This document shows, one piece after another, positions 49,186 to 64,000 of a DNA stretch of 64,000 nucleotides. A program made the translations under genes and the position numbers. Source of the DNA: Oxynema aestuarii AP17. Its GTDB lineage: Bacteria; Cyanobacteriota; Cyanobacteriia; Cyanobacteriales; Laspinemataceae. The stretch is from contig NZ_CP051167.1 of NCBI RefSeq assembly GCF_012295525.1, positions 5,557,299 through 5,621,298 on the forward strand, written 5' to 3'. Numbering within the stretch: position 1 is the first letter of the stretch; each line of letters begins with the position of its first letter. Under the pieces are notes generated by a model. It saw only the letters and a program-made list of their open reading frames with translations. It searched no databases and was not told the DNA's origin.

Positions 49186-49287
49186 TCTGTGACTGGCTGT
49201 TTGTACCCGTAAGACTATAATCTATTTGGTACACTGAAAGGGAACGATAGCATTAGGGTTTTCACTCTTGTTTCACAGAGGGATTAA
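49186..49287. promoter_or_regulatory. putative res (resolution) site / divergent tnpA-tnpR promoter region
   Basis: 102-bp interval between divergent tnpA and tnpR. Contains the inverted motif tgtaccc...ggtaca (tgtacccgtaagactataatctatttggtaca). The position is canonical for Tn3-family res sites. Confidence 0.45.
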
Positions 49288-49935
49288 TTGGTACAAAAAG
49301 TTGCTATCTACTGTCGGGTTTCGACTTCTGACCAGTCCTGTTCTCGCCAAGAACGTGACTTGGTTGCTTATGCTGAATTAGCTGGCTATCAAGTGGTTGG
49401 GATTTGGAAAGAAACGGCTTCTGGGAGTAAGCATCGCCTATTACAAAGAGACCAGATCCTGAAGTTAGCTCAAGCTCGTGCCATTGATGCGGTGCTGGTC
49501 ACTGAACTGACTCGCTGGGGTCGCAGCACTTTAGATTTGATTCATACATTGCAGGATTTAGCTCATTGGCGAGTCTCGTTGATTGCTCAAACTGGAATTG
49601 AGTTTAGTTTAGACACGCCTCAAGGTAAACTGATTGCCAATGTTATGGCTACTCTGGCTGAGTTTGAGCGCGATTTAGTTCGAGAGCGGGTGCGTTCAGG
49701 TTTGGCTGCGGCTAAGGCACGTGGAGTTAAGTTGGGTAGACAGCCTGGGCAACGGGTGAAAGCTGACCGTTTAGAGAACAAGGTTTTGCTTCTGGTTGAG
49801 CAAGGTCACTCCTATCGGGCGATCGCCAGACAGCTTCATCTGAGTAAGACTACAGTTAATGACATTGTGAAGCGACATAGGCAAAAAACCGCTCCATCTT
49901 TGACTGGCATAAGCACAGAAGATTCTGAAAGCTAG
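49288..49935 (+). CDS. tnpR: serine recombinase (Tn3-family resolvase)
   Basis: VAIYCRVSTSDQS catalytic Ser motif and C-terminal HTH (GHSYRAIARQLHLSKTTVNDIV). 215 aa. Probable TTG start. Confidence 0.9.
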   Translation: MVQKVAIYCRVSTSDQSCSRQERDLVAYAELAGYQVVGIWKETASGSKHRLLQRDQILKLAQARAIDAVLVTELTRWGRSTLDLIHTLQDLAHWRVSLIAQTGIEFSLDTPQGKLIANVMATLAEFERDLVRERVRSGLAAAKARGVKLGRQPGQRVKADRLENKVLLLVEQGHSYRAIARQLHLSKTTVNDIVKRHRQKTAPSLTGISTEDSES

Positions 49936-50264
49936 AAGTATTACCCAGTAAGGATTTCAGCCTTAGCGTAAGTTTCTGTACGATTGCTACTCAAACGCCC
50001 AAACCCTGAGCAAGGCACTGGCGAATAAAGATGGAAATCTGCTCCGTGGCAGTGGTCCCCTCATCCTGGCAAAGGGCCACAAAAGATTGCCACTCCTCCG
50101 GATCCATTCGGAGTGAAATCGGTTTTCGGGTCATAACTTTTCGTTTCCCACGTCAATCCAGTATTGCCAATACAAGCGTATTACAAAAAAAGGGAATTGC
50201 CGATACAGGGCCTTGGGGGACTGGGGGCCTTTGAGGTGGGTTCTACTAGATTTAAGGTAAACTG

Positions 50265-50291
50265 GTGTAAATAAGGGACCCTTATTTACAC
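50265..50291. promoter_or_regulatory. perfect 13-bp inverted repeat with 1-nt spacer (gtgtaaataaggg a cccttatttacac) 22 bp upstream of the truncated serine recombinase gene
   Basis: Perfect palindrome, followed by the RBS-like aggaaaggtagg and the ATG at 50313. Candidate recombinase binding or crossover site, or an operator. Confidence 0.45.
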
Positions 50292-50312
50292 ACAAGAGGA
50301 AAGGTAGGGGCC

Positions 50313-51032
50313 ATGACGAAAGGTTTTGATAACAGTACAGTAATCTATATTCGGGTATCCACCGATGAGCAAGCGAAAGAAGGGGTCTCTATCCCGGCCC
50401 AGGTAGAAAAACTGACGGCCTACTGTAAACAAGCGGGTCTCAGGGTAGTCTCCACGATTATTGACGATGGAGTCAGTGCGGGGAAGTTTCTGAGCACTCG
50501 TCCTGGGGGTAGCCAGTTGGTTGAGTTGGTCCGGTCGCGCCAAGTCAAAAATATTGTGGCGGTCAAGCTCGACCGTCTGTTTCGGAGTGCCGCCGATGCC
50601 CTCACCAGCGTTGACAATTGGGATAAGCTGGGGGCATCGCTCCACCTCTTAGACTTCAATGGGATGAGCTTGGATACGTCCAGCCCGATGGGGAGGATGA
50701 TGTTGACGATGATCGCGGGCTTCGCGGAACTCGAAAGAAATCTCTGTAAACAACGGACTAAAGACGCTATCCAACATAAGAAAGCGAGTAAGCAGAAGTA
50801 TTGCCGGAGTGTTTACGGGTATCAAACTTTAGAAGATGGAACAATGGTTCCAGACGCATCTGAGCAAGAGGCGATCTGCATAATCAAGATGATGCGATCA
50901 TCGGGTGCAAGTCTTCGAGCTATCTGTTCTAAGCTCACCGAACTCGGTTACAAAACCAAGCGTGGCGGGGTTCAATGGTATGCCGCTACTATTAAGGGAA
51001 TCCTAGAAAATGATATCCACCAACTAGCTTAA
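50313..51032 (+). pseudogene. large serine recombinase, truncated after ~239 aa
   Basis: Resolvase catalytic domain (VIYIRVSTDEQ). The start of the recombinase domain ends at ...GVQWYAATIKGILEN and then terminates (DIHQLA*). Zinc-ribbon and coiled-coil domains are missing. Confidence 0.65.
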
Positions 51033-51298
51033 AACATGAGCAATTTAGAAAAGGACATCATAGAAGCCTTAAGGGGTAAGGACGGCATCTTCCCTACTAG
51101 AATACGCGATTACATACGCACTAAGCATTTCTTAAACTTCGGAGATGGGCCAAACGTCGCACTCTTAATGTCAAAAAAGCTCAGGGTCTATATTGGCGAG
51201 CAATCAGCAATAGAAACTGGGTATTTGCGACCAAAGGGGAGCAGCCAAAAAAGCTAGTTTTACACACAGAGTTTGCGACCAGTAGTAACAAACATCTG

Positions 51299-51604
51299 TT
51301 GGTAAAAGGCGATAGAAGCCCCTATGAGGGCGACTTAGTTTATTGGAGTAGAAGGTTAGGCAGACATCCTGAATTACCTAACAGACAAGCGATACTTTTA
51401 AAACAACAACAAGGTAAGTGCGCTTGGTGGGGACTACACTTTCTTTCAGGAAATGTAATGGAGGTTGACCATAAAATCCCACTTTCTCAAGGAGAAAAAG
51501 ACGAGTGGGTTAATCGTCAGCTATTACATCGACATTGCCACGATGAAAAGACTGCTGCTGACGGCAGTCAGAAGTCCGTTATTGACAAAGGGATTGCACA
51601 TTGA
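51299..51604 (+). pseudogene. group II intron-encoded protein fragment (DNA-binding/HNH endonuclease domain only)
   Basis: KCAWWGLHFLSGNVMEVDHKIPLSQGEKDEWVNRQLLHRHCHDEKT is the characteristic En-domain motif (C..C...EVDHI.P...G...N...LH..CH). A degenerate domain-V-like sequence follows (agccgtgtgcggtgaaaatcgc...ccggtttc). The reverse-transcriptase domains are absent, so this is a 5'-truncated copy. Confidence 0.6.
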
Positions 51605-51822
51605 GTAGCCGTGTGCGGTGAAAATCGCTCTTCCCGGTTTCGGAAGAAAGGGGTGGAATGGTAACATTCCCCTCGACTCTATCTCTCGGCTTTACCCCTC
51701 TATCTCTCGGCTTTACCCCGGATTCAGCCGGTGTTGGTGAATGGGTGATTTCACGCTAACTCAAAATCCAGCCAAACGTAGACTCATTTAATCCACCAAT
51801 TTTCTAGTATTCACTAACATAA

Positions 51823-52245
51823 AATCTTACTATAGATGATAATCAAGTTCAAGGAACAATCACGGGAATTACATTTACCAATCCCGAGGATGGCTACACA
51901 ATTGCCCAACTCACCTCGCCTGAGCATGGCACAATCACGGTCATCTTTAATCTAACTGTCAAGAAAGGGCAAAAGCTGATTGTAACGGGATTATGGAAGA
52001 ATCATCCTCGCTATGGCAAACAATTTCAAGCTCAAACTTGGAAGGAAGAAAAGCCCACCACTTTGCTTGGAATTGAGCGCTACTTAGGCGATGGACAAAT
52101 TCCCGGGATTGGTCCAGGGTTGGCTAAAAAGATTGTTGCTTATTTTGAAGAGCAAACGCTTTCAGTGATTGAGAACCAGGTCGAGCGGTTGATTGAAGTG
52201 CCGGGTATTGGCAAGAAGAAAGCCGATCAAATTCAGGCTGTTTGA
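51823..52245 (+). pseudogene. RecD2-type SF1 helicase, N-terminal ~140 aa only
   Basis: GTITGITFTNPEDGYTIAQL...LIVTGLWKNHPRYGKQFQAQTW...GIERYLGDGQIPGIGPGLAKKIVAYFEEQTLSVIENQVERLIEVPGIGKKKADQI. This is the N-terminal OB and helix-hairpin-helix region of RecD2. There is no ATG, and it stops after the HhH motifs with no helicase domains. Confidence 0.65.
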
Positions 52246-52363
52246 TCTGCAAAAGCAAAGTTAGGAGCATTTTTTCGACGTGGGTTCAAGTTGAGTGCTT
52301 ATCTTATCAGGATGGCTCGTCGTTCGGCCACCTGTTTGGTGGATCCCACTCCTCATCAATTTG

Positions 52364-52762
52364 TTAACTTTCCAGATTCTCTCTGTTCTGAGTAAAACAT
52401 TTGGAAAGTAAGTCTGCTACCCACGATCCCACATTTGTTGTACCATTCCAGTCAGGAACCTTTTCGTCGTCGAGTTCAACTTTGAGGCTATCTTCTAGGA
52501 AAAGAACAATTTCAAGAAGGTCCCAGTCACAAGGCTGAAGGCGAGATAACTCCCCAAATTTATCATTTGGATATATTTTTTCAGGGGGAACTTGAAACAT
52601 ATCTCCTAACTTTGAGCGATAGTCTTTGACAACTTTTTTCAATTTAGTGCCTGAAAAGCCAAGTTCAGACAAAAAGTCTTCATCGGTCATTCGCGGACGC
52701 TGTAAAAATTCCTCTAACTTTTTTTTAGAGTTGAACCAGAAAAGCATAAACTCTCTTTTCAC
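52364..52762 (-). CDS. putative immunity protein for the orphan Rhs C-terminal toxin
   Basis: 132-aa acidic cytoplasmic protein. AT-rich. Immediately 3' of the orphan Rhs C-terminal cassette. Assignment by position only. Confidence 0.4.
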   Translation of the reverse strand: MKREFMLFWFNSKKKLEEFLQRPRMTDEDFLSELGFSGTKLKKVVKDYRSKLGDMFQVPPEKIYPNDKFGELSRLQPCDWDLLEIVLFLEDSLKVELDDEKVPDWNGTTNVGSWVADLLSKCFTQNRENLES

Positions 52763-52775
52763 CTGCTCATTGTTT

Positions 52776-55532
52776 TTAGTTGTTTGTCAAGCCATACTGG
52801 TGGTCGTAGGTTTTTCTTATTCTCGCTCCTGACGCATAACCAATAGTGAATCCAAAAAGAAAACCTAATGCGATAAAAGTAGTTGATTGACCGTATTTCA
52901 ACAAAACTTTCGCTTGCGTTGCGAAGCCTTGACCAACAACTCTAGCTATTTCATGTCTTCTCCATATCGCTCCACGTATCAGCGCATCATCCACAATGGT
53001 AATGGCAGTGGTGAGGGCAGTACCTAATGTAACTTCATAGTCGGGTTCTAAAAGCCCTCCAGTAAAGCCAAGTGCAAAGCCTCCGATTAGTGCTGCCGCA
53101 GTTGTAGAATGTCTTGTGAGTGCCTTTCTCCATAATTCCTGAAAACCCCGAGTCAGAATTGGTCCTAGACCTGCTGGAGTTAGATAGAAGGCTCCGCCAA
53201 GCATAGCTCCGGCAGCGGCTCCTCCTACGGCTCCTACCAGTGCAAACTTTAAAGTCTCTTTGCTAAAGACTTCACCTGACTTATAGGCCCCGTAATAACC
53301 GCCTCCTACTGCACCAGCGAGACTGCCAATTATCGTACTGCCTGCTAACACCTCTGTCAAAGCAAAGAAACCACTAGGATCAACATAATTAACCGGATTC
53401 GCATTCCCATACAAATACTTATGCAGAGTAATCGGCTCATTAAGACGTCCCTCATAAGTATCCCGGCGAGTAAACCGGCCAATCCCCGCATCATAATAGC
53501 GTTGTCGCAGATAATATTGCTCTAAACTCTCATCATACTGCTCCCCTGCAAACAAAAACTCATTTTCAATACTACCAGAAGATGCCACCAGATTCCCAAA
53601 CGCATCGTAACTGTAAGCATTTGTAACCTCCCCACCTTCATCCGTTAGCAACCTCGTACTACCCAGTCCATCCACTAAGTAGAACGACTCACTCCCATCC
53701 CTTTCCTGAGAAATCAAATCCAGGCCATGCAGATAGCTGACAGCAAGCGTATCATCCACATACTCTGACAACACCTCAGCATAGGGACGATTCTTATCCA
53801 CGAGGTACTCCGTTGTCACCCCATTCACCGTCGAACTGACCCGAATATTGTCAGTATCGTAGGAGTAACTGATGACATCCCCGGTTGATGTTGTCGCCCC
53901 AACCAAACGATTCTCCTTATCCCAGGAGTAAGTCGCATTCCCGATGACATTATTACTTCCATCCTTCTCAATACGTTCTATCGTATTGCCATTGTCGTCA
54001 TAACGATACTCGTAGACACGAACTACATTCCCATCTAGAGTCAACTCTTTCCGAACCAGGCGATCGCTCTCATCGTAAACATAAGTCGTCGTCCCCTCAA
54101 CCGAATCAATCCGACTCAAGCGATTTCCCACCGCATCATAGGTGTACTCTATCGTGCGGTTCCCATTTACGGGGTCAGCGATCGCCTCTTTAGTTAGACG
54201 ATACAAATCATCATATTCATACTCTACTTTCCGGCCATCACGTTCTTCAACAACGCGGCGATGTCCTACTGGGTCAAGAGTATAATCGTAACTAGCGATG
54301 AGCGTTCCATCCTTGACATAACTCACCGATTCCAACCGACTCAATTCATCGTAAGTCCGAGTTTCCACCACTCCATTCGGTAACTCAGTCCGGATTAAAT
54401 TGCCAACTTCATCATAGGAATAACTCGTGACTCCAGCATCATCCGTCACCGTTTTCAGACGATTTTGCTCCTCAAAAGCGTATTCTATCGTTCCCGTCGG
54501 TGTCGTTACAGAAGTCCGATTTCCAGCAGAATCGTATCCATATTCAATCGAAGCACCACTGGTTAAATAAGGCCCATCCGGGTCAGTCCGAGAAAGCAAA
54601 CGACCGAGTTCATCGTAGGAGTAACTCGTCACCCCGCGACTATCTGTTATGGTTTCTAGTTGTCCGGTTGGGGTATAGGTGAAACTGGCAATTGGCGTTT
54701 CTCCCACCCGTTTTTCAATGAGACGATTTTGAGCGTCATAGTTATAAGTAATGGTGTCCCCATTGAAGTCGGTAACGCTAAAAGTGTTGCCTACTGCGTC
54801 ATATTCTGTTGTAGAACGTTGAGTGTCAGGTAACTCGACGGCAGTGCGACGACCCAGGTTATCATACTCGTAATTAGTCCGATGGTTGTTGGCATCCTCC
54901 TGCCAAATTAATCGACCCGATTCATCGTAACCATACTCAGTCCGGATTTCTTCGCCGTTGAGGAACTGCACCACATCCGTCAAGCGACCAAGTGCATCGT
55001 ATTCATACTCGGTTTTATTCTCTGCTTGGTCGATCGCAGCAACCCGACGACCGAGTGCATCGTAAATTGTTTCTGCCTTAGTTCCATCAGCAAAATGCGT
55101 TGCAACTAAGCGTCCCAGATTATCGTAAACGAACCGAGTCGCATGACCTTGAGCATCAATTTCTTTGACTCGCTGTCCTGCATTATTATACTCAGACTTG
55201 CTACGCGGATTATCTGATAAATCGTCTGGTGTATCATCCGGATAAATCGTCTCTATCAAACGACCTGCATCATCGTAACGATACTCAGTCCGATTACCGC
55301 GTTGGTCTATATTCGCCTTAACTTGGCCGTTTTTATTGTACTCCGTAACCGAACGAGGATTGTCAGTTAAATAGGTAGGTAAGTCATCCGGATAAACAAC
55401 TAGACTCCAATCAATCGTTGCCGCAGTTTTTCCAGGTGCAACCGCGTCGATAAACTGTTGTAAAGTATCGGTTTTATCAAGATAAATTGTCTCGGTTAAC
55501 TGTCCCGCCGCATCGTATTTATAATGAATCAC
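52776..55532 (-). CDS. Rhs/YD-repeat protein, N-terminally truncated orphan copy with distinct glycine-zipper-rich C-terminal tip
   Basis: Starts inside the YD repeats (MIHYKYDAAGQL). Many YDxxGR(L/V) repeats. Conserved core end RYYDAGIGRFTRRDTY...PVNYVDPSG. A ~200-aa C-terminal tip rich in GxxxG/AxxxA and hydrophobic segments (SLAGAVGGGYYGAY, GAVGGAAAGAMLGGAF). Confidence 0.85.
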   Translation of the reverse strand: MIHYKYDAAGQLTETIYLDKTDTLQQFIDAVAPGKTAATIDWSLVVYPDDLPTYLTDNPRSVTEYNKNGQVKANIDQRGNRTEYRYDDAGRLIETIYPDDTPDDLSDNPRSKSEYNNAGQRVKEIDAQGHATRFVYDNLGRLVATHFADGTKAETIYDALGRRVAAIDQAENKTEYEYDALGRLTDVVQFLNGEEIRTEYGYDESGRLIWQEDANNHRTNYEYDNLGRRTAVELPDTQRSTTEYDAVGNTFSVTDFNGDTITYNYDAQNRLIEKRVGETPIASFTYTPTGQLETITDSRGVTSYSYDELGRLLSRTDPDGPYLTSGASIEYGYDSAGNRTSVTTPTGTIEYAFEEQNRLKTVTDDAGVTSYSYDEVGNLIRTELPNGVVETRTYDELSRLESVSYVKDGTLIASYDYTLDPVGHRRVVEERDGRKVEYEYDDLYRLTKEAIADPVNGNRTIEYTYDAVGNRLSRIDSVEGTTTYVYDESDRLVRKELTLDGNVVRVYEYRYDDNGNTIERIEKDGSNNVIGNATYSWDKENRLVGATTSTGDVISYSYDTDNIRVSSTVNGVTTEYLVDKNRPYAEVLSEYVDDTLAVSYLHGLDLISQERDGSESFYLVDGLGSTRLLTDEGGEVTNAYSYDAFGNLVASSGSIENEFLFAGEQYDESLEQYYLRQRYYDAGIGRFTRRDTYEGRLNEPITLHKYLYGNANPVNYVDPSGFFALTEVLAGSTIIGSLAGAVGGGYYGAYKSGEVFSKETLKFALVGAVGGAAAGAMLGGAFYLTPAGLGPILTRGFQELWRKALTRHSTTAAALIGGFALGFTGGLLEPDYEVTLGTALTTAITIVDDALIRGAIWRRHEIARVVGQGFATQAKVLLKYGQSTTFIALGFLFGFTIGYASGARIRKTYDHQYGLTNN

Positions 55533-55690
55533 CCGTCCCGCTTCATCAATAGTCGCTCGTTGGCGTCCTCCCTTATCGTAAACATTGATAGTCCGGGGGT
55601 TATCGTTAGGATTTTCTGGAGTGTTGTCGGGATAAATCGTTTCGACTTTCGTGTGGCTCTGCCCACCCTACCATCTATTTATAACTTTTT

Positions 55691-56830
55691 TTAAAATGGA
55701 ATCCTTGCCTCAAGTTCTGGAAACTTTAAAATCAGTTTTGTTAATGCTTTAGCTGCTGCATCTTTTACCTCAATATCGCTATCGCTTAAAGCTTCAATCA
55801 GAGGTTCTACTGCTCTTGAATCTTTGATTTCACCTAATGCCCATGCTGCCTTCTTCCTAATCTCTTTTAAAGCCCACGCTTTTATATGTTTAATTTCGAT
55901 GTCAGTCGCTCTATGACTTGTGGTGGTAAGTTCAGCTATTCGCTCGTTTTTTAACCGACAAAAATCACTTTCTGGATTTAAAATTTTAATTAGATCGGGG
56001 AGAGCTTGTGGATCGCCTAACTCGCCCAAAATTTCAATTGCCCTTGTTATAAACATCATAATTATTGATAGATCGTTGTTTTGTTGGCTTGATTGCTGTA
56101 TGGCGTTGCTTAAAATTTTTACGGTTTCTAAACTTTTGAATTCTACAAATTCGTCTGAAAATAATTCTAATATCTCCCAAGTTATTGGCTGAAATTTTTT
56201 AAGATTTTTAACGGCTAATTCTCCTAACTTGGAATTATAGTTTCGCCAGATTTGACGGACTCGTTCGGGATAAGAAGCAATATAAGAACGCTCGTAGGCT
56301 TCAGCATCGTGATAGTAAGCGCCTGTTTCATAGCACTCTGCCATTGTTAGCATCATACTTGTTAAACTAGCATATTTTTTTATTGTTTCAGGCCATACTT
56401 CAAAATCTAAAAAAATTACAGGATAATGAAACTCCTTGTTTATGCGACTCATTGTAATTACACCTTGTTGTGGACCTTGAGGAGGGTAAAAAATAGAAAA
56501 ATAGTTTAATTTGTAACCACTTTCAGCTTTTGAGTTTGCAAGACAGCCATAGTATAAAATTTGACCGATTTGTAATACTTCTTGCAAAGGCTTAAAAGTC
56601 CAGTTTTCAAAAATCCAAGCTGTTTCTTTACACAAGTCTCCTTTTACTGCACCATTTCTCCATTGGTAGAGTTCATAGAGTTCCGGAGGTACTTTAACGG
56701 GTAAATTTTTAACTAGCTCGTCTATTTCATTTTTTGACAATCCGGGCTGTAAATAATCCACCAACCAGGGTTTATATTGTTCTATCCAGCTTAATATTCG
56801 GTTTAAGGCATCGGTCAGTTCTGTACTCAT
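55691..56830 (-). CDS. SMI1/KNR4 (SUKH-1) family immunity protein with C-terminal HEAT-like repeats
   Basis: The N-terminus (LPVKVPPELYELYQWRNGAV) is the SUKH hallmark. The C-terminus has HEAT/PBS-lyase-like repeats (EPLIEALSDSDIEVKDAAAKALTKL). Very AT-rich gene directly 3' of the main Rhs toxin gene. Confidence 0.7.
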   Translation of the reverse strand: MSTELTDALNRILSWIEQYKPWLVDYLQPGLSKNEIDELVKNLPVKVPPELYELYQWRNGAVKGDLCKETAWIFENWTFKPLQEVLQIGQILYYGCLANSKAESGYKLNYFSIFYPPQGPQQGVITMSRINKEFHYPVIFLDFEVWPETIKKYASLTSMMLTMAECYETGAYYHDAEAYERSYIASYPERVRQIWRNYNSKLGELAVKNLKKFQPITWEILELFSDEFVEFKSLETVKILSNAIQQSSQQNNDLSIIMMFITRAIEILGELGDPQALPDLIKILNPESDFCRLKNERIAELTTTSHRATDIEIKHIKAWALKEIRKKAAWALGEIKDSRAVEPLIEALSDSDIEVKDAAAKALTKLILKFPELEARIPF

Positions 56831-56844
56831 AACTCATAACCTTT

Positions 56845-58395
56845 TTAAAATGGATACCATAAATTATTATTGTTTATATTTAGCTTTTGACCCTCTCGAT
56901 CTATCCAATGCGTCTGATCGTCATTAACTTGAACCCCAAACCAACTTTCTTTGGGATGGTTAGAGTTAACAGGAGCGGACTTGTAAAAGTTTAAAAGGAA
57001 ATCACCTTGGCTTTGATTTTGGGTTTCATTTACAAGTCTTAAACTAACCTTGCCTGCATCATAATTCAAAGGGCCTCCTTGCAAAGTTGAATTGTATGGG
57101 TACTCATCACACTGCCGATTTTGGAATTGTGGTTGCCATACGCCTTTAATCCACTGACAATTTCCTTCTACTGCATTATACCATTCCCGTGGTCCACCAC
57201 TTCCTACTGGGCTTGCAGGGCCCCTCCATTTAGTCCACCCTGGAAGAATACGAGCTAAGAAAGACTGCCCAGTTTGGACAATAGCCTCCTGCGTATGTTG
57301 CCTTATTTCCGGTACCTCGTCTCCCCAAACAATAACTGGGAATCCCTCAAAATCACAGTTACCAGCCCCCACCGTTGTGTTGCACTCTTCAACCTTTTTT
57401 CTAAGAACCTGATAATTATTTTCAGTTATGGGCAAACCCAGGAACGTATTAACTCCACTATGCTTAATATTTTTCAAATAGCCAGGAACTACAACATCAT
57501 CTCCATCGAATCTTCTCAAGTTTCCAATAGGGGCACTTGGAGAAACAAGCTGCATTGCGGCTAGAACAGTAGCTATTTTCATGGTTATGGATGTGTCCCC
57601 ATAGGTAAAAAGACCAGTGGGATCCGTTAAATTCACAGGGTTGCCATGAACGTAGGGATACTTCGCCAAAGACAGTGGCTCCACTAACATCCCCTCAAAG
57701 GGGTCTGTGGCACTAAAACGTCCAGTTTCCGAGTCGTAATACCTCGCTCTTAAATAATACTGCTCCAAATTTGGATCGTACTGTTCCCCAGCAAATAGGT
57801 AGTGATTGACCGTATTGCCTGTAGACCCCAGTAAATCGCCATAAGCCTCGTACTGGTAAGTATCTGTGACCAAACCAGCAGCATTAGTCAAAGCCCTCGT
57901 ACTACCCAATCCATCAACATGATAGAAAAAGCGATCGCTGCCTCGCTTTTGGGAAACCAGGTCGAGTCCGTAGGTATAAGACGCCGTTACCATACCATCT
58001 GGAGTGTACTCCTCCAATACCTGAGCGTGAGGCCGATTGGTATCGAGCAAATACCGCGTCTCCTGACCATCCACAATTGACGCCACCCGCATCCCGTCAG
58101 CATCGTAGCGATATTCAATCTGTTGGGTTTCTCCCCCATCAGTAACAGAAGCCGTCAGCAAGCGATTTTCCTCATCCCAGGTGTAGCTAGCTTTGTCGGT
58201 ATCGCTTTTAAACCGGGAGAGGAGATTGCCGTTATTGTCATAAGTGTAGGTGGTTAGCTGACCATTAAGAGCTTCACTCAACAACTTGCCATTGTCATCG
58301 TAAATATAGGTAGTCAGTCCCTCTGACGAATCATTACGACTAACTCGGTTCCCCACACCGTCGTAGGTGTAATTAATCGTGCGATCGCCTGCCAC
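56845..58395 (-). CDS. C-terminal part of the main Rhs protein (YD repeats, core end, C-terminal toxin domain); in frame with 58423-62355 across a TGA
   Basis: Homologous to the orphan copy up to DPTGLF, then a different ~250-aa tip containing NRQCDEYPYNSTLQGGP, which resembles the DEYPF..GG motif of NucA/NucB-type DNases. Begins at a GTG. Confidence 0.85.
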   Translation of the reverse strand: MAGDRTINYTYDGVGNRVSRNDSSEGLTTYIYDDNGKLLSEALNGQLTTYTYDNNGNLLSRFKSDTDKASYTWDEENRLLTASVTDGGETQQIEYRYDADGMRVASIVDGQETRYLLDTNRPHAQVLEEYTPDGMVTASYTYGLDLVSQKRGSDRFFYHVDGLGSTRALTNAAGLVTDTYQYEAYGDLLGSTGNTVNHYLFAGEQYDPNLEQYYLRARYYDSETGRFSATDPFEGMLVEPLSLAKYPYVHGNPVNLTDPTGLFTYGDTSITMKIATVLAAMQLVSPSAPIGNLRRFDGDDVVVPGYLKNIKHSGVNTFLGLPITENNYQVLRKKVEECNTTVGAGNCDFEGFPVIVWGDEVPEIRQHTQEAIVQTGQSFLARILPGWTKWRGPASPVGSGGPREWYNAVEGNCQWIKGVWQPQFQNRQCDEYPYNSTLQGGPLNYDAGKVSLRLVNETQNQSQGDFLLNFYKSAPVNSNHPKESWFGVQVNDDQTHWIDREGQKLNINNNNLWYPF

Positions 58396-58422
58396 GGGGT
58401 CAGTAATCTTTTCTTCTATAAG

Positions 58423-61400
58423 TCAGTACAAGTCGTCATAGGTGTACTCAATTACTCGACCGTTATTTTCCTCCACCTTTGTCCGCTGTCCTGCTGCGTT
58501 TAAGGTATATCGGTAACTAAAAAGTGTCACTTCTTGACCCGTACTGGGTTCGACCTTTAAATTTTTCAAGAAGACTAGACGATTTAATTCGTCGTACTCG
58601 CGAAGTTCAATCGTGCCATTAGGGAATTCCGTTCGGGTGAGGTTGCCAGCTTTGTCATAAGCGTATTGCGTCACCCCTAAGTCAGGAGTGGTAACGGTTT
58701 CAAGTTGATTGTACCTGTCGTAAGTATAATATGTCGTACCAGAGGAAGTTGTTACTGAGGTAATATTGCCAGCCCCATCATAAGTGTACTCTATCTTACG
58801 CCCATCCGATTCAGTGCGCTCGATAAGTCGATCGCGCTCGTCGTACTTATAAGTGGTTGTCCGAGTCATTCCTGCCTCGATTTCCGTTACTGTGTGGCGC
58901 AATCCAGTAGGTGTGTAGGTGTATTCAAGGGACCTGCCATCGGGGAAACGTTCAGCAGTTAGATGGTTAAGCGAATCGTATTCGTAGGAAACGCTATCTT
59001 GGTTGAAATCCTTTGCACTCAGAAGGTTTCCTACAGCATCGTAGGTAGTTTGAGAGTATTGGAATTCGGGCAACACTGTTCCCACTCGACGTCCCAATTC
59101 ATCGTATTCGTAAGTGGTAACATCGCCGTTAGCATTTTTGATGCTGGTTAAGTTGCCACTGAAATCGTAGCCGTACTCAGTTCGTTGTTTCAGAGCATCT
59201 ACCACAGCTACGAGTCGTCCTTGAGGATCGTATTCAAACTCTGTTTTCTTGCCAACCTGGTCAGTTATCGAGGTGACGCGCCCTAAGTTGTCGTAAGTTG
59301 TTGTGGTGTAGGTATTATCGGGAAAGTGTGTTTCGCTCAAGCGACCCAACTCGTCATAGACAAAGCGAGTCGTATTTCCCATTTGGTCAGTCTCGCTAAT
59401 TTGATTGCCAAACTCATCGTAAGTTATTGTTTTGCGACGGCAACCGCAACTGCTGCGAGATTCAATTACGCGACCTAACGTATCGTATTCGTACTCATTT
59501 CGATTACCTCGTTCGTCAATCTCAGCTACGACCCAACCGAGTTCGTTGTATTCAGTTTTGGTTCTGGGGTTATCTGCTAAGTCATCTGGGGTATTGTCTG
59601 GATGGATGACTTCCACTAAGCGATCGAGCAAGTCATAAACAAAATAGGTAGTACGACCTGCTTGGTCTGTGAAAGAATGTTTGCGTCCCACCGCATCATA
59701 AGTAGTGACAGTGCGACTGCCATCGGCATAGTGAGTTTCAATTGGACGACCGACGCGATCGTAAACAAACTTGGTCGTGTGGTTCCGAGCGTTTGTTTCG
59801 CTTAACCGATTTCCCACTGAATCGTAGGTGTATTTAGTTTCATTGTTGAGAGCATCGCGCATAAGAGTCCGACGACCTGTTTTATCGTCCTCGTACTCGG
59901 TACGATACCCCCGCTCGTCAATTTTAGCTTTAATTTGACCAGCTTGGCTGTATTCTGTTTTAGTTCTAGGGTTGTCGGAAAGATTGTTAGGTGTATCATC
60001 TGGGTAAATAGTTTCTATTAGTCGATTTAGAGCGTCGTAGACGAAATGCGTCATTTGTCCTTGTTGGTCAAGGACAGCCACTTTTCGGCCTGCCTTATCG
60101 TAAACAAACCGCTCTAATGTTCCGTCAGGATATAAGGTTTCTTCAAGATGGCCTTTCTCGTTATAACGGTATTCGGTACGACGATTTTTTGTACCTTCTT
60201 CAACCAGAGCGGTTAGGTTGCCCAATTGGTCATATTCGTGGCGGATGACATGACCCGATGAGTCAGTTTTTGTCAAGACATTCCCTTTGCTATCGTATGT
60301 CCATTTGGTGACCAGTGTCTTTTTACCTTCAGGGGTGGTAACAGTAACGGTTTCAGTAAGTTGGTTGCCATTGTTGTCATAAGTGTAAGTCGTTTCATTC
60401 CCCAAAACATCAATTTGACGAGTGACATTGCCAAAAGAATCGTATTCAAATTGGGTGGTATTACCGTCGGCATCGGTGAGAGAAGTGACATTACCAAACT
60501 CATCGGTAGTTTGCTTGATAACTTTCCCTTGTGCGTTCGTGGTGCTGAGGAGGTTTCTTCTACTGTCGTAGGTGTAGGTAATGGTGTTCCCTAGAGGGTC
60601 AGTTTTAGTTAAGACTTGCCCCAAACTATTGTAAGTGTATCGGGCTACGTTACCAAGAGGATCGGTTATGGCGAGCAAGTTGCCATTACTGTCATAGTCA
60701 TATTTGATAGTATTGCCCTCTGGGTCAGTTTCACTTAGCAAGTTATTGTCTTTATCATAAGACTGCTTGCTAATTCCTCCTACTGCATTCACTTTTTGAA
60801 CTATATTCCCCCGCTCATCATACACATAAGTCGTCGGGTTCCCAAACACATCCAACACCGTTTGAGTCGAATTATCCGGGTCATAAACCAACTCAACCGC
60901 TTCGCCATTCACATCCAGCATCCGCTTCAATCGACCCGACTCATCATACTCGGTCCGTACCCCAGTTCGTCCCAACGGGTCAATGATTTCTTCTAAGTAA
61001 TGTTCTCGTTCCTCATGATACTCAAACCTTGTGGTATTCTCCTCGCGATCCGTAACCCCAACTAAATCCCCATTCTCATCATATTCATACTGAATCTTAT
61101 TCCCCTCCGGGTCAACTGCCGCCACAATCCGACCCGACGCATTGCGCTCAAACGTCACCGACTTCCCAGTAGAACTGAAAATCCCCTCATCCGAATAAGT
61201 CAGCGTATTGCCATTCGTATCCGTCACCGTCAATAAATCGCCAGTTGTCCCATCAATCACATACTCAATACCCTCCTTCGTTCTCAGCGTATAACTCCCG
61301 CCAAAGAACGAATTTGCTGGATTGTAAGGCGACCCACTCGGATGATAGTATTGACCCGTCTCCTGATTGTAAAGCAACTGAGTTTTTTGAGCACTCAACG

Positions 61401-62355
61401 TCACCTGTTCCCCATCATCCGTCTCAAACGCTGGATTGTAGAAAATCATGCTTTGGGGTAAAGGTGCTCCCATCCGCAACGCCTTGACAATCTCCGGATC
61501 CATCACAGGTTTGAACGTAAACCCAGTCCGCTTCCCACCGGGTAACGTCACGTAAACCCGCGTACCTTCCTCAAATCCAACTGAAGGAATCCCCGTCTGT
61601 TCGTACAGTTCATCCCGTCCCACAGAAGTCCGTAAATCTGTATCCCGGAACTCCAAGCGCCATCCATATCCAAAATCATCGGATTGGTTCGTGGTTAGCG
61701 TATCGTAAGTCCGCGTCAGGTTAATCGGAATCCCCGCTACTGGAACCTCCAAATCCGTAAACGATAAGCGGAAATTGCCTAATTTTAACTCCCCAGCAAC
61801 ATCCACCATTTGTTCTGTCGAAGCACTATTCCCACTTTCATCCGTCGCCGTCAACCGCAGAATGTAAGTATCATTTTGCAGCAGGGTCGGGTCAAACTCT
61901 GCCAATTTCCCATTGGTTATCTGAGAATTTCCCGATGCAATTTCGACAAACTCTCCACCGGATGCAGGTGCAATAGATAGGACGTAATTCGTCAAGTTGT
62001 CATCCGTTACCGTCCCAATAATATCGGTAAAATCGGTCAGCGGTTTCTCTCCAAGGGTGGGAGATAGTTCTACAATAGGAGGATTCAGGTCATTGGGGTC
62101 GTAAACCCGAATGTCAATGCTACTTTCACCCAAATTTCCCGCCGCATCTACCGCAACTGCTTTAGCGGTTAACGTTCCCAATTCTGAAGGGGTGTAACTT
62201 GCTGTTCCATTGGCAGTTAAGGTAACGGGAACTTCATCCACAAACAATTGGACACCTTCTACGCCAATATTATCGGTGGCATTAGTAAAGAAAGTGATGG
62301 GAGTGCCTAACGGGACTTCAAAATCGCCATCTACGATAAATACGCCTGAAGGCAA
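58423..62355 (-). CDS. N-terminal 1310 aa of the main Rhs/YD-repeat protein (Ig-like N-terminal domains plus YD repeats), ending at an in-frame TGA
   Basis: N-terminal beta-rich Ig/cadherin-like region, then tens of YD repeats. Ends ...YTYDDLY* exactly where the orphan copy reads YDDLYRLTKEAIADPV. The downstream ORF continues in the same frame (LIEEKITDPVAGDRTINYTYDG). Confidence 0.85.
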   Translation of the reverse strand: MPSGVFIVDGDFEVPLGTPITFFTNATDNIGVEGVQLFVDEVPVTLTANGTASYTPSELGTLTAKAVAVDAAGNLGESSIDIRVYDPNDLNPPIVELSPTLGEKPLTDFTDIIGTVTDDNLTNYVLSIAPASGGEFVEIASGNSQITNGKLAEFDPTLLQNDTYILRLTATDESGNSASTEQMVDVAGELKLGNFRLSFTDLEVPVAGIPINLTRTYDTLTTNQSDDFGYGWRLEFRDTDLRTSVGRDELYEQTGIPSVGFEEGTRVYVTLPGGKRTGFTFKPVMDPEIVKALRMGAPLPQSMIFYNPAFETDDGEQVTLSAQKTQLLYNQETGQYYHPSGSPYNPANSFFGGSYTLRTKEGIEYVIDGTTGDLLTVTDTNGNTLTYSDEGIFSSTGKSVTFERNASGRIVAAVDPEGNKIQYEYDENGDLVGVTDREENTTRFEYHEEREHYLEEIIDPLGRTGVRTEYDESGRLKRMLDVNGEAVELVYDPDNSTQTVLDVFGNPTTYVYDERGNIVQKVNAVGGISKQSYDKDNNLLSETDPEGNTIKYDYDSNGNLLAITDPLGNVARYTYNSLGQVLTKTDPLGNTITYTYDSRRNLLSTTNAQGKVIKQTTDEFGNVTSLTDADGNTTQFEYDSFGNVTRQIDVLGNETTYTYDNNGNQLTETVTVTTPEGKKTLVTKWTYDSKGNVLTKTDSSGHVIRHEYDQLGNLTALVEEGTKNRRTEYRYNEKGHLEETLYPDGTLERFVYDKAGRKVAVLDQQGQMTHFVYDALNRLIETIYPDDTPNNLSDNPRTKTEYSQAGQIKAKIDERGYRTEYEDDKTGRRTLMRDALNNETKYTYDSVGNRLSETNARNHTTKFVYDRVGRPIETHYADGSRTVTTYDAVGRKHSFTDQAGRTTYFVYDLLDRLVEVIHPDNTPDDLADNPRTKTEYNELGWVVAEIDERGNRNEYEYDTLGRVIESRSSCGCRRKTITYDEFGNQISETDQMGNTTRFVYDELGRLSETHFPDNTYTTTTYDNLGRVTSITDQVGKKTEFEYDPQGRLVAVVDALKQRTEYGYDFSGNLTSIKNANGDVTTYEYDELGRRVGTVLPEFQYSQTTYDAVGNLLSAKDFNQDSVSYEYDSLNHLTAERFPDGRSLEYTYTPTGLRHTVTEIEAGMTRTTTYKYDERDRLIERTESDGRKIEYTYDGAGNITSVTTSSGTTYYTYDRYNQLETVTTPDLGVTQYAYDKAGNLTRTEFPNGTIELREYDELNRLVFLKNLKVEPSTGQEVTLFSYRYTLNAAGQRTKVEENNGRVIEYTYDDLY

Positions 62356-62498
62356 TACTTGTACTAAGGGAGATATGGTATCGGAGGAAACTTCGAGTAT
62401 GAGGTTTCCGCATAGAGTTGGGGAATAAAGGGAGTCTAATGAAAGATCTGTTGACTCATGTTGTTTGATACAAATGGTGTTAAAATTAAGGCAGGAAC

Positions 62499-62975
62499 TT
62501 GGATTTAGGGAGATTAATGATGGATGGGGAAGAACTGCTCAGACGCTACGATGCGGGAGAGAGAGATTTTCGAGCAATTATTTTGCAGCATACTGACTTA
62601 AGCAATGTTAAGTTAGATTCGGTCAATCTAAGCGGTGCTTGCTTTTACCATGTCAACCTTCAGAGTGCTAACTTAAAAAATGTTAACTTAAGCAGTACCG
62701 AATGGTCGGACTGTAATTTATCGGTTATGCAATTCTGGTTATGTAATCTGAAAGATGCTACGATCGAGCAGTGTGATTTGGAGAGTGCCAGATTTTTTGA
62801 CTGCGATCTCAGAGGTATAAGAATTAGTCTTTCAAATGTAAGCCGTGCTGCTTTTATTAGAGTAAATTTTCAAGATGCTAAGTTGGGTGGTTCTGGCGAA
62901 GATCCTTGTGAATTCTGGGATGTTATTCGACCGGACGGAGTTTTTATATCCGGTTTTACTTACCATATAACTTGA
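62499..62975 (+). CDS. pentapeptide-repeat protein
   Basis: Consecutive A(D/N)LSx units: DLSNVKLDSVNLSGACFYHVNLQSANLKNVNLSSTEWSDCNLS... Confidence 0.85.
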   Translation: MDLGRLMMDGEELLRRYDAGERDFRAIILQHTDLSNVKLDSVNLSGACFYHVNLQSANLKNVNLSSTEWSDCNLSVMQFWLCNLKDATIEQCDLESARFFDCDLRGIRISLSNVSRAAFIRVNFQDAKLGGSGEDPCEFWDVIRPDGVFISGFTYHIT

Positions 62976-63178: not shown

Positions 63179-64000
63179 TTAGCTATTCAAAGTCTGCTGA
63201 ATAGTTTCTGGTAGATTTGACAGGAAATCAAAATTAAAGTCATAATCGCGAACTCGGTTACGCTCATTCAGAATGTGGGTCAGTTCTGGAATAGTGACTC
63301 GCCAGGTATCTGGGTTTCTCCAATCCGTTGGATTAGTGATGTTCCCGCGATTGTTGTTCAAAAACTGGGAAAATACATTCAGTGGATTGGCAATCCCTTC
63401 TGAGGATACATTATTCCAATCTGGTTCCGCTCTATTGGGGGTTATATATGCGAAACCTTCTATGTTTGACGAAGTAATATCGGCTCCTGGCTGTTCTAAG
63501 GCGATGATACTTTTCCACGTCCATTTAGGAATGTGAATTTCTTGGCTGACTAAATTGTCAGGGTTTGTATTTCCCCTATTTACATTCAGGTTAAGTAATT
63601 CGGGTACATTTGTTCTTGGTTGAGAATTATCATTATTGCCAAAAGCTCCAGCAAAAATATAAAGCTCTTCCCCCTGAGCAGCCCGTGGAAACACCACTTT
63701 ATCTTCTATATTGAACCAAGCAGAAGCATCTCTGGGATTGTCACTTCCCGACACAAAAAATCGATTATTATCCATTGATTGGGCAATCAAATTAGTTGTG
63801 AGGTAGGTTGATAACTGGTCTTTGGGGTGTCTTCGTTTATCGCGATCGGGAGCCAAATGTCCTCGATCCATTCCCAATCCTGTAAAAATATTTGCATCAT
63901 AGCTGGACAGGCCACTCGCTAATAAATCAGGGTCAGCTATAAATTCAGGTCTTCTTAGTAATCCTGTTGGGAATTCTCCCGGTTCGGGTTGTGGTTGTGT
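63179..64000 (-). CDS. DNA/RNA non-specific endonuclease (NucA/Serratia-nuclease family), 5' end beyond window
   Basis: DRGHLAP active-site motif (DRGH) and Asn-rich C-terminus. The reading frame stays open upstream to nt 64000; the track start at 63877 is a TTG. Confidence 0.7.
   Translation of the reverse strand, partial: TQPQPEPGEFPTGLLRRPEFIADPDLLASGLSSYDANIFTGLGMDRGHLAPDRDKRRHPKDQLSTYLTTNLIAQSMDNNRFFVSGSDNPRDASAWFNIEDKVVFPRAAQGEELYIFAGAFGNNDNSQPRTNVPELLNLNVNRGNTNPDNLVSQEIHIPKWTWKSIIALEQPGADITSSNIEGFAYITPNRAEPDWNNVSSEGIANPLNVFSQFLNNNRGNITNPTDWRNPDTWRVTIPELTHILNERNRVRDYDFNFDFLSNLPETIQQTLNS

What the first reader, a model, noticed from the sequence alone, without database searches (positions are those of the whole stretch)
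52364..62355. Rhs polymorphic-toxin locus with main gene, SUKH immunity, and a displaced orphan C-terminal/immunity cassette
The architecture matches Rhs toxin systems. A full-length Rhs with Ig-like N-terminal domains and a variable tip is followed by its SUKH/SMI1-KNR4 immunity gene. Then comes a promoter-less Rhs fragment starting mid-repeat that shares the core end (…DPxGxF) but carries a different tip, followed by its own small immunity gene. Both immunity genes are AT-rich relative to the rhs cores, typical of horizontally swapped tip-immunity modules. Rhs systems are little studied in cyanobacteria, and the delivery route here is unknown.
Basis: partly seen in the sequence, partly recalled or inferred. 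Interest (0 to 1): 0.6.

Follow-up and report, generated by a model that had tools for sequence, protein, structure and literature searches.

The report
Decaying Rhs toxin array in cyanobacterium
This is a genuine Rhs toxin-and-antidote gene array in the cyanobacterium Oxynema aestuarii, but its main toxin gene is beheaded and carries a stop codon, and close relatives show step by step how toxin tips are swapped and old ones pushed downstream.

Summary
On the minus strand, 52364-62397 carries two Rhs core ends, each followed by a different C-terminal tip and a small AT-rich gene.

- **Tip A** is a NucA/NucB-type DNase, followed by a SUKH-1 + HEAT immunity gene.
- **Tip B** is an unclassified glycine-zipper, multi-helix domain, followed by a soluble 132-aa protein.

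The interpretation needs two corrections.

1. The "main" gene is not full length. Its homology to relatives stops abruptly at 62397, whereas one relative has an uninterrupted 5,687-aa gene. It is also split by an in-frame TGA at 58423-58425, where two relatives have CGA.
2. The orphan is not a recent copy of the main core. The two share 46% amino-acid and at most 70% nucleotide identity.

A Laspinema contig carries one continuous gene that joins the window's 5' part directly to the orphan. This shows that a 5.1-kb cassette (core A, DNase tip, immunity) was inserted and displaced the older 3' end.

A 1,878-bp tract covering tip B and its immunity gene is 100% identical to Laspinema, while its flanks differ by 5-15%. 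Core-B ends carry at least six different tips in related genomes.

Verdict: this is a known kind of system with a new member. In this strain the weapon is probably dead but both immunity genes are intact. Interest is moderate.

The parts
58426..62397 (-). 5'-truncated main rhs gene, upstream part. It holds sub-threshold Ig-like modules, DUF6531 (61645-61782) and RHS/YD repeats. The first possible start is the TTG at 62355. The frame stays open to at least 62508 with no start codon.
   Evidence: Homology to L001 and L003 ends sharply at 62397. L001 reads through as one frame of at least 3,327 aa, called as 5,687 aa.
60798..60808 (.). Junction A, the left crossover. Upstream of it the window is about 93% identical to the Laspinema gene. 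Downstream begins the unrelated core A.
58423..58425 (-). In-frame TGA that splits the main gene. Both relatives (L001, L002) have CGA (Arg) here, and the orphan also has Arg at the equivalent position.
57607..58422 (-). End of core A, including the Rhs-associated core domain (57610-57852) that ends in DPTGLF.
56845..57606 (-). Tip A, 253 aa plus stop. It is a NucA/NucB-type DNase domain (Pfam match at 56965-57123) with an adjacent Asp-Glu pair in CDEYPY.
   Evidence: NucB active-site residues from PMC5758888
55691..56830 (-). immA, a 379-aa protein with SUKH-1 (SMI1_KNR4, 56408-56743) and C-terminal HEAT_PBS repeats (55733-55867). It is the predicted immunity protein for tip A. GC 35.7%.
   Evidence: Identical protein in L001 and L002. 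= QIZ73022.1.
55651..55690 (-). 3' tail of the inserted cassette A. Junction B lies at about 55650, at the start of a repeated ETIYPD(D/N)TP..DNPR motif.
53364..55650 (-). Orphan core B. It is the 3' two-thirds of an older rhs core, an intact frame with no ATG start, and ends with an Rhs-associated core domain (53370-53609) and DPSGFF.
   Evidence: Collinear with L003 6254-8540. dN/dS 0.14.
52776..53363 (-). Tip B, about 195 aa plus stop. It is rich in Gly and Ala, has 5-6 hydrophobic helices with glycine-zipper spacing, and matches no known family.
52364..52762 (-). immB, a 132-aa soluble acidic helical protein. It is the predicted cognate partner of tip B. GC 38.6%.
   Evidence: A homologue follows a tip-B homologue in L013 and L014. 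= QIZ73021.1.
51649..53526 (.). 1,878-bp tract with zero differences from Laspinema sp. D1 contig JAMXFE010000057. It covers the last 160 bp of core B, tip B, immB and a helix-hairpin-helix gene fragment, and is flanked by 5-15% divergence.

Best explanation
The locus is an rhs (YD-repeat) polymorphic-toxin array in the chromosome of Oxynema aestuarii AP17. It sits in a plasmid-like, mobile-element-rich island.

**How the intact form works (inferred from family knowledge).** In the intact relative, a giant surface protein (5,687 aa as called) consists of Ig-like repeats, a DUF6531 plug, an Rhs shell and a tip. The shell would encapsulate a C-terminal NucA/NucB-type DNase. The DNase would be released by self-cleavage at the DPxGxF boundary and delivered into neighbouring cells. 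The SUKH-HEAT protein encoded next door would bind and neutralise it in sibling cells.

**How the array arose (shown by comparison).** An older gene, with the N-terminal part joined to core B and a tip, received a 5.1-kb incoming cassette of core A, DNase tip and SUKH-HEAT gene. The left crossover lay in shared rhs sequence at about 60803. The right end was an illegitimate join at about 55650. This displaced the old 3' end (core B, tip B, immB) downstream as an orphan without a start codon.

**How tips are exchanged (shown).** Tip-plus-immunity modules move between strains and genera by recombination that begins in the conserved core end.

**State in AP17 (shown and inferred).** The weapon is probably disabled. 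The main gene has lost its 5' end, at least 2,360 codons by comparison with L001 (5,687 codons called there against the 3,327 that overlap this locus), and carries a CGA-to-TGA nonsense codon. Both immunity genes and the orphan frame remain intact. The locus therefore most likely acts as an immunity store and a reservoir of tips.

**Tip B (inferred).** Tip B is predicted to be a membrane-inserting, depolarising glycine-zipper toxin. immB is predicted to be a soluble cytoplasmic protein that sequesters it.
For: **Family assignment**
-.

**Truncation and nonsense codon**
-.
- Within the 5.5 kb of cassette A the window differs from L001 at only two positions. One of them is 58425, T in the window and C in both relatives.

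**Displacement**
- L003 has one continuous 2,524-aa gene.
- Its bases 3989-5643 match window 62397-60743 at 93%. Its bases 6254-9124 match the orphan at 94%.
- Core B is continuous upstream of the orphan start in another genome as well (P0180).

**Tip exchange**
- The 1,878-bp tract has no differences.
- Identity among the three genomes is mosaic.
- At least six tips sit on core-B ends, each switching right after DPxG.

**Independence from assembly**
-.

**Tip B and immB pairing**
- Tip-B homologues in two unrelated contigs are each followed by an immB homologue.
- Tip B has 5-6 hydrophobic 19-aa windows and 30% Gly+Ala, while immB has none.

**Precedents**
- An Rhs pore-forming tip, Tse5 (PMC9637101, PMC10684867).
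- A soluble cytoplasmic immunity protein that sequesters a glycine zipper, EsxX with ExiAB (PMC12744356).

**Selection**
- Purifying selection acts on the orphan core, dN/dS 0.14.
Against: - No toxicity, immunity, cleavage or secretion was tested.
- The N-terminus of the intact 5,687-aa relative could not be retrieved, so the export route is unknown.
- I could not search the rest of the AP17 genome. A separate full-length rhs gene that could use these tips is not excluded.
- The TGA could in principle be a consensus error, although substitutions are not the typical PacBio error.
- The Pfam DNase match covers only profile positions 46-92 of 100. phmmer found no solved NucB structure.
- The tip-B model has low confidence (pLDDT 48) and the immB model is mediocre (pLDDT 62). 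The ACP-like fold hits are not significant (E about 0.4).
- One immB homologue, in Trichocoleus, stands alone with no tip B nearby.
Confidence: 0.75

Rival explanations
1. The main gene is a working weapon in AP17. On this view the TGA is a sequencing error or is read through, and the shorter gene starting near 62355 is a functional, naturally short Rhs.
For: - The frame is otherwise intact over 5.6 kb.
- NCBI annotates the 516-aa C-terminal part as a protein, QIZ73023.1.
- Cassette A is nearly identical to that of a strain with an intact gene.
Against: - The breakpoint at 62397 is sharp and falls inside an Ig-like module, when compared with two relatives.
- There is no ATG, only a TTG 14 codons into the homologous region.
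- No signal or trafficking domain remains.
- The T at 58425 is one of only two differences in 5.5 kb, and a substitution is not the typical PacBio error.
- The 1310-aa part is absent from the protein collection, which is consistent with annotation as a pseudogene.
Confidence: 0.08
2. The orphan, or the apparent truncation, is an assembly artefact. On this view repeats collapsed or were mis-joined, and the orphan is really the 3' end of another complete gene elsewhere.
For: Rhs and Ig-like repeats are hard to assemble. The orphan really is the 3' part of a longer gene in another genome (L003).
Against: - The SUKH-orphan junction is identical in a JGI 6.3-Mb contig and in an independent Logan assembly.
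- AP17 is a closed PacBio assembly made from a 20-kb library.
- The main core and the orphan core are at most 70% identical at the nucleotide level, so they cannot collapse onto each other.
Confidence: 0.03
3. The start-less orphan and the 516-aa fragment are expressed internally. They would act with their immunity genes as intracellular toxin-antitoxin modules, as reported for Salmonella Rhs elements, rather than as reservoirs or relics.
For: - PMC7043789 reports TA-like behaviour of a Salmonella main and orphan Rhs.
- The orphan frame is intact over 958 codons, with dN/dS of 0.14.
- In-frame GTG and ATT starts have been annotated.
Against: - No promoter-like site lies on the minus strand between the SUKH stop and the orphan's first candidate starts.
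- Most of the purifying-selection signal may date from when core B was part of a complete gene.
- In L001 and L002 the same orphan carries a frameshift and a truncated tip. This argues that it is dispensable.
Confidence: 0.1
4. Tip B and the 132-aa ORF are not a toxin and immunity pair. For example, tip B could be a membrane anchor or a degenerate tail, and the small ORF an unrelated ACP-like protein.
For: - Neither matches a known toxin or immunity family.
- A solitary immB homologue exists.
- Distant immB relatives hit PP-binding.
Against: - Tip B occupies the canonical toxin position directly after the Rhs-associated core.
- The pairing recurs in three unrelated contexts.
- The module moves as a unit.
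- Solitary immunity genes are normal for these systems.
Confidence: 0.12

Closest known systems
Enterobacterial rhs loci with orphan rhs-CT/rhsI modules (E. coli, Salmonella, Dickeya; C-terminal displacement model; PMC3150448, PMC7043789)
   Same: - The main rhs gene is followed by its immunity gene.
- Then comes a start-less core fragment in the same orientation, with a different tip and its own immunity gene.
- Tips switch exactly at the DPxGxx boundary.
- Immunity genes are AT-rich.
- New tips arrive by recombination and push old ones downstream.
   Different: - The orphan keeps about 760 aa of core and is only 46% aa and at most 70% nt identical to the adjacent main core. Simple homologous re-fusion with this main gene is therefore unlikely.
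- The intact relative is a 5,687-aa protein with Ig-like repeats and no PAAR/VgrG or T6SS context visible in the window. The relative's N-terminus was not retrieved.
- The array lies in a plasmid-like island of a filamentous cyanobacterium.
Tse5 (RhsP1) of Pseudomonas aeruginosa, an Rhs protein with a pore-forming C-terminal toxin (PMC9637101, PMC10684867)
   Same: An Rhs shell carries a hydrophobic, membrane-targeting C-terminal tip.
   Different: There is no detectable sequence homology. Tse5 is T6SS-delivered. I recall its immunity protein as being membrane-associated, whereas immB is predicted to be soluble.
EsxX with ExiAB and ExiCD of Staphylococcus aureus (PMC12744356)
   Same: A glycine-zipper, membrane-depolarising polymorphic-toxin tip is neutralised in the producer's cytoplasm by a soluble protein that sequesters the zipper. 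This is a precedent for a soluble immB.
   Different: It is an LXG/T7SS toxin, not an Rhs. There is no homology to tip B or immB, and no membrane immunity gene is seen here.
Bacillus NucA/NucB DNases (PF14040; NucB structure, PMC5758888)
   Same: The Pfam match is above threshold. The adjacent Asp-Glu pair (CDEYPY) that is essential in NucB is present.
   Different: - Here the domain is the tip of an Rhs protein and is about twice as long as mature NucB.
- Only the central part of the profile aligns.
- The position of the metal-binding Asn is not settled.
SUKH (SMI1/KNR4) immunity proteins of nuclease toxins (PMC3482391)
   Same: A SUKH-1 domain protein is encoded directly downstream of a nuclease tip. 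SUKH and HEAT proteins are both listed as immunity families, including in cyanobacteria.
   Different: Here SUKH-1 and HEAT repeats are fused in one 379-aa protein. The same pairing of SUKH-HEAT with a NucA/B-like tip recurs in Oscillatoria sp. SIO1A7.

Membership tests
Rhs / YD-repeat polymorphic toxin | Many RHS/YD repeats that form the shell | tested here: met
   PF05593 gives 22 stretches (E=2e-142) in the main gene and 11 stretches (E=3e-75) in the orphan.
Rhs / YD-repeat polymorphic toxin | Rhs-associated core domain ending in DPxGxx, immediately before a variable tip | tested here: met
   TIGR03696 scores 69.1 and 68.1 bits against a cut-off of 32.5, ending at DPTGLF and DPSGFF.
Rhs / YD-repeat polymorphic toxin | Unrelated tips on near-identical cores in related genomes | tested here: met
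   Core-B ends carry at least six different tips.
Rhs / YD-repeat polymorphic toxin | Complete gene with a start codon and an N-terminal trafficking region | tested here: not met
   Homology ends at 62397, there is no ATG, and an in-frame TGA lies at 58423-58425. This feature is met only in relative L001.
Rhs / YD-repeat polymorphic toxin | Self-cleavage that releases the tip, and delivery into target cells | not testable with these tools
   Only the sequence motifs (RxRYYDxxxGRF ... DPxG) are present.
Orphan rhs-CT/immunity module | Start-less 5'-truncated core fragment with its own tip and immunity gene, downstream of the main immunity gene on the same strand | tested here: met
Orphan rhs-CT/immunity module | Enough nucleotide identity with the adjacent main core to recombine with it | tested here: not met
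   The best blastn segment is 70% over 146 nt, and identity is 46% aa over 832 columns.
DNase_NucA_NucB (PF14040) | Profile match above the curated cut-off | tested here: met
   37.7 bits against 23.8, covering profile positions 46-92 of 100.
DNase_NucA_NucB (PF14040) | Catalytic Asp-Glu pair and metal-binding Asn, as defined for NucB | tested here: inconclusive
   The D-E pair is present in CDEYPY. Asn candidates lie 25 and 29 residues downstream, compared with 23 in NucB. This was aligned by eye only.
SUKH-1 (SMI1_KNR4) immunity protein | SUKH domain protein encoded directly after a nuclease tip | tested here: met
   PF09346 scores 33.3 bits against 25.4. The gene starts 15 nt after the tip-A stop codon.
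Glycine-zipper membrane-depolarising toxins (Tse5-CT, EsxX-CT, ionophoric CdiA-CT) | Several hydrophobic helices with small-xxx-small zipper spacing | tested here: met
   Tip B has 5-6 windows with Kyte-Doolittle score of at least 1.2, 19 overlapping small-xxx-small-xxx-small motifs and 30% Gly+Ala. The model is all-helical but of low confidence.
Glycine-zipper membrane-depolarising toxins (Tse5-CT, EsxX-CT, ionophoric CdiA-CT) | Sequence homology to a described family | tested here: not met
   There is no Pfam or NCBIfam hit. The Gly-zipper models score E=0.54 and 0.028, below threshold. Only two homologues shorter than 1000 aa were found among 5.8 billion proteins.
Acyl carrier protein fold (PF00550), considered for immB | PP-binding profile match and a phosphopantetheine-accepting Ser | tested here: not met
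   - The window protein gives no PF00550 hit.
- Of the immB relatives scanned, only P0151 passes the cut-off (31.5 bits against 20.8); P0157 falls just below it (18.7 bits).
- The position expected for the Ser is an invariant Trp (D79-W80).
- Foldseek top hits are ACPs but at E about 0.4.

The most novel reading that the evidence does not exclude
Tip B and immB may be a previously undescribed toxin-immunity family. Tip B would be a multi-helix glycine-zipper membrane toxin. immB would be a soluble, ACP-fold-derived protein that has lost the carrier serine and neutralises tip B in the cytoplasm. The pair would travel as a cassette of about 1.9 kb that has very recently crossed between Oxynema and Laspinema. 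It would be deployed by giant (over 5,000 aa) Ig-repeat Rhs proteins of filamentous cyanobacteria through a T6SS-independent route.
Probability: 0.4. Interest if true: 0.55.

Novelty: new member of a known kind. Interest (0 to 1): 0.38.

Why it matters
Rhs main-plus-orphan arrays are textbook in enterobacteria. The steps that create them are usually inferred rather than seen. Here three closely related assemblies preserve three states:
- the state before insertion (Laspinema);
- the state after insertion with an intact weapon (the JGI strain);
- a decayed weapon with immunity retained (AP17).

A tract of perfect identity also pins down a recent inter-genus transfer of one tip-immunity module. 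Together these give a clean natural example of C-terminal displacement and of weapon loss with immunity retention in a phylum where Rhs biology is almost unstudied.

The work also flags an uncharacterised toxin-immunity pair, and giant cyanobacterial Rhs proteins whose export route is unknown.

The system type itself is not new.

Tried and rejected
- **Source genome by GTDB scan.** A genome-contig scan with the SUKH-HEAT protein found nothing. The source was identified through exact-protein look-ups instead.
- **5' end of the intact 5,687-aa gene.** The metagenome scan returned only a 45%-identical gene, L004, of at least 6,554 aa with repeats that look like Calx-beta by eye. The protein search returned no hit of 1,000 aa or longer. 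The N-terminus and export signal therefore remain unknown.
- **Exact look-ups of the pentapeptide protein.** Three alternative start codons all failed.
- **Inversion or shufflon switching by the nearby Pin-like recombinase.** Rejected. All rhs pieces are co-oriented, and no inverted repeats link them.
- **Tn3-mediated adjacent deletion as the cause of the orphan truncation in L001.** Rejected. The deletion endpoint at 50278 lies 278 bp outside the Tn3 inverted repeat at 49999.
- **A paralogous second copy of the orphan in AP17 (QIZ73890.1).** It is the same gene annotated with an ATT start.
- **Structure-based classification.**
  - The tip-B model is too poor to search.
  - The immB fold search was not significant.
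- **21-bp repeat as an att site.** The repeat at 51677-51718 has no second copy at the far end of the array.
- **Promoter and terminator scan.** It gave nothing decisive.

Full report
**What is in the sequence**

All relevant genes lie on the minus strand. In reading order they are:
- an open frame from at least 62508, whose first possible start is the TTG at 62355, running to a TGA at 58423-58425;
- a continuation in the same frame from 58422 to the stop at 56845;
- a 379-aa gene at 56830-55691;
- a frame that opens at about 55652, without an ATG, and runs to 52776;
- a 132-aa gene at 52762-52364.

The stop at 58423 is a single in-frame codon, reading YDDLY-TGA-LIEEKITDPV. The orphan has Arg at the equivalent position.

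Family matches are as follows.
- Pfam finds 22 RHS_repeat stretches in the upstream part and 11 in the orphan.
- Pfam finds DNase_NucA_NucB in the first tip.
- The 379-aa protein has SMI1_KNR4 plus HEAT_PBS repeats.
- The second tip and the 132-aa protein match nothing.
- NCBIfam TIGR03696 (Rhs-associated core) matches both core ends at 68-69 bits. Each match stops at DPTGLF or DPSGFF.
- DUF6531 passes its threshold near the 5' end, but Ig-like models do not.

GC content is 35.7% and 38.6% for the two small genes, 41.8% for tip A, 45.7-47.8% for the cores and 50.4% for the window. The genome as a whole is 51.5% (PMC7595944). No further Rhs core end exists in the window.

**Source**

Exact-sequence look-ups assign the five proteins to Oxynema aestuarii AP17:

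| Protein | Accession |
|---|---|
| Recombinase | QIZ73019 |
| Helix-hairpin-helix fragment | QIZ73020 |
| immB | QIZ73021 |
| SUKH-HEAT | QIZ73022 |
| 516-aa Rhs C-terminal part | QIZ73023 |

The orphan is annotated separately with an ATT or a GTG start, as QIZ73890.1 and WP_246259702.1. The 1310-aa part is not in the protein collection. AP17 is a closed 6,357,750-bp PacBio assembly, CP051167.

**The main gene is not intact here**

Two other assemblies carry the identical SUKH-HEAT protein:
- a 6.3-Mb JGI contig, L001;
- a Logan contig, L002.

L001 bases 4434-13467 align to window 62397-53365 at 98.1%. In L001 the rhs gene is called as 5,687 aa, and I verified an uninterrupted frame of 3,327 aa across the part I hold. 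That frame includes He_PIG and Big_9 Ig-like repeats upstream of the point where the window's homology stops.

The stop in homology is abrupt, at 62397/62398, inside an Ig-like module. It is followed by unrelated sequence and a divergent pentapeptide-repeat gene. At 58425 the window has T where both L001 and L002 have C, so CGA (Arg) has become TGA.

**The orphan is a displaced 3' end**

A Laspinema sp. D1 contig, L003 (JAMXFE010000057), carries the identical immB protein directly after one continuous 2,524-aa rhs gene.
- Its bases 3989-5643 match window 62397-60743 at 93%.
- Its bases 6254-11923 match window 55646-50001 at 94%.

Relative to this gene, the window and L001 contain 5.1 kb of foreign sequence: core A, the DNase tip, the SUKH-HEAT gene and 40 nt of tail.
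- It enters at about 60803, where identity collapses after ...GAGCGGGGGAAT.
- It ends at about 55650, just before GTCGAAACGATTTATCCC.
- It replaces 611 bp of the older core.

Core B continues upstream of the orphan start in another genome too (P0180). The continuous form is therefore ancestral.

The orphan and core A are only 46% identical in protein and at most 70% in DNA. The orphan is thus not a duplicate of this main gene and cannot easily recombine with it. The right junction coincides with a motif, ETIYPD(D/N)TP..DNPR, that is repeated five times across both cores.

**Tip modules move**

Between the window and L003, 1,878 bp (53526-51649) show no difference at all, while both flanks differ by 5-15% per 200 bp. 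The tract starts 160 bp before the tip boundary. It covers tip B, immB and a helix-hairpin-helix gene fragment.

Between the window and L001, only two differences occur from about 61000 to about 55500, against roughly 5% in the flanks. The three genomes are mosaic with respect to each other.

In L001 and L002 the orphan core is followed, exactly after DPSG(Y/F)F, by a different Gly-rich tip fragment joined to window position 50278. Both also carry a +1 frameshift at 55035.

Core-B-type ends in four further cyanobacterial assemblies carry four further tips:
- Laspinema olomoucense D3b;
- Oscillatoria sp. HE19RPO;
- an uncultured cyanobacterium MAG;
- Oscillatoria sp. SIO1A7.

One of these four tips is NucA/B-like. 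It is followed by a SUKH-type gene and then another orphan that begins at the same core position.

The orphan core shows dN/dS of 0.14 against L003.

**Tips and immunity proteins**

Tip A has the adjacent Asp-Glu pair (CDEYPY) that is essential in Bacillus NucB (PMC5758888). The position of the metal-binding Asn is not settled. SUKH and HEAT proteins are established immunity families for nuclease tips (PMC3482391).

Tip B is about 195 aa, with 30% Gly+Ala and 5-6 hydrophobic segments in glycine-zipper spacing.
- It has no family match.
- It has only two homologues among the indexed proteins, P0121 and P0122.
- Both homologues begin at an Rhs-type DPSG/DSSG boundary, and each is followed by a homologue of immB.

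immB is soluble and acidic and belongs to a small family of 33 representatives in 1.84 billion proteins.
- Of the relatives scanned, only P0151 passes the PP-binding cut-off; P0157 falls just below it.
- The Foldseek top hits are acyl carrier proteins but are not significant.
- The position of the carrier serine is an invariant Trp.

AlphaFold models are of low (48) and mediocre (62) confidence.

Two systems are functional analogues, not relatives:
- Tse5, a pore-forming Rhs tip (PMC9637101, PMC10684867);
- EsxX with ExiAB, in which a soluble cytoplasmic protein sequesters a glycine zipper (PMC12744356).

**Context**

The array lies in a mobile-element-rich island. The island contains:
- a Tn3-family transposon at 46111-49999 with 52-bp inverted repeats;
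- a Pin-like recombinase;
- an HNH remnant;
- a ParM-like gene;
- TnpB;
- STAND NTPases.

Window 50001-51698 is 93% identical to plasmid pOSCIL6304.02 of Oscillatoria acuminata. There the recombinase-HNH block is followed directly by pentapeptide-repeat genes convergent with large proteins that end in an Endonuclease_NS domain. The same gene pair flanks the far side of the Rhs array in the window. The array therefore looks like a 10.7-kb insertion into an integrated plasmid-like backbone.

**Conclusion**

The best-supported reading is an rhs toxin array built by C-terminal displacement. Its tip-immunity modules are exchanged horizontally. In AP17 the delivery gene has been inactivated, while both immunity genes and the orphan frame persist.

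This is a new member of a known kind. Its added value is an unusually explicit set of evolutionary intermediates and one uncharacterised candidate toxin-immunity pair.

Toxic activities, immunity, self-cleavage and export are all inferred, not shown.

Noticed in passing
window 62499-62975 (+) and 63179-64000 (-): A gene running off the window end finishes in an Endonuclease_NS domain with the DRGH motif, and is convergent with a pentapeptide-repeat gene. Plasmid pOSCIL6304.02 (L016) shows the same convergent pairing twice, next to the same recombinase-HNH backbone. One of its partners is a giant DUF4114 protein whose C-terminus is 39% identical to the window domain. The pentapeptide proteins (DNA mimics, from my own knowledge of the family) might be immunity proteins for nuclease tips of another polymorphic toxin.
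   Followed up: partly
window 51677-51718: A perfect 21-bp tandem duplication (CTCTATCTCTCGGCTTTACCC, two copies) sits exactly where homology to pOSCIL6304.02 ends. That plasmid has one copy, and the Laspinema contig also has two. No further copy exists in the window, so it marks the backbone/insert boundary but is not a flanking att pair.
   Followed up: partly
window 46111-49999: A Tn3-family transposon (1008-aa transposase, 215-aa resolvase, 52-bp inverted repeats starting GGGG) is inserted precisely between 46108 and 50001, relative to both the Laspinema contig and pOSCIL6304.02. It is present in L001 and L002.
   Followed up: yes
window 45591-45828: A 22-bp unit (AGTCTACACTGAATCTACCCTC) is repeated 10.8 times in tandem next to the plasmid-like backbone. 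It may be iteron-like. Other short tandem repeats lie at 43163-43306 and 44486-44641.
   Followed up: no
window 51299-51604 and 52063-52245: These are isolated gene fragments: a 101-aa HNH-domain ORF, which by my own recollection resembles the C-terminal HNH domain of a group II intron maturase, and a 60-aa helix-hairpin-helix piece of a RecD2-like helicase. The latter lies inside the tract that is 100% identical to Laspinema.
   Followed up: no
L008 (Oscillatoria sp. SIO1A7, JAAHFN010000013) 1353-14084: This is an array of at least three Rhs core fragments with two SUKH-HEAT-like genes. The orphan after the NucA/B-like tip starts at the same core position as the orphan in the window, which suggests a recurrent breakpoint or inheritance of the whole array.
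   Followed up: partly
L003 1-1550 versus L001 1-1951: The 2,524-aa Laspinema gene is itself 5'-truncated relative to the 5,687-aa gene. Homology begins at L003 1506, next to an AbiEi_4 gene. Large 3' rhs fragments therefore seem to travel on relaxase-bearing elements.
   Followed up: partly
window 24261-25502, 26756-29098, 31203-35541, 38580-39590: The island also holds TnpB (IS605 OrfB), a NACHT-N/HEAT protein, a STAND NTPase-WD40 gene split into two overlapping ORFs, and a ParM-like actin. This gene content is typical of a defence and mobile-element island.
   Followed up: no
L015 (Trichocoleus sp. FACHB-6) 6001-6357: An immB homologue (64% identical) stands alone with no tip-B remnant upstream. 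It is a possible orphan immunity gene.
   Followed up: yes
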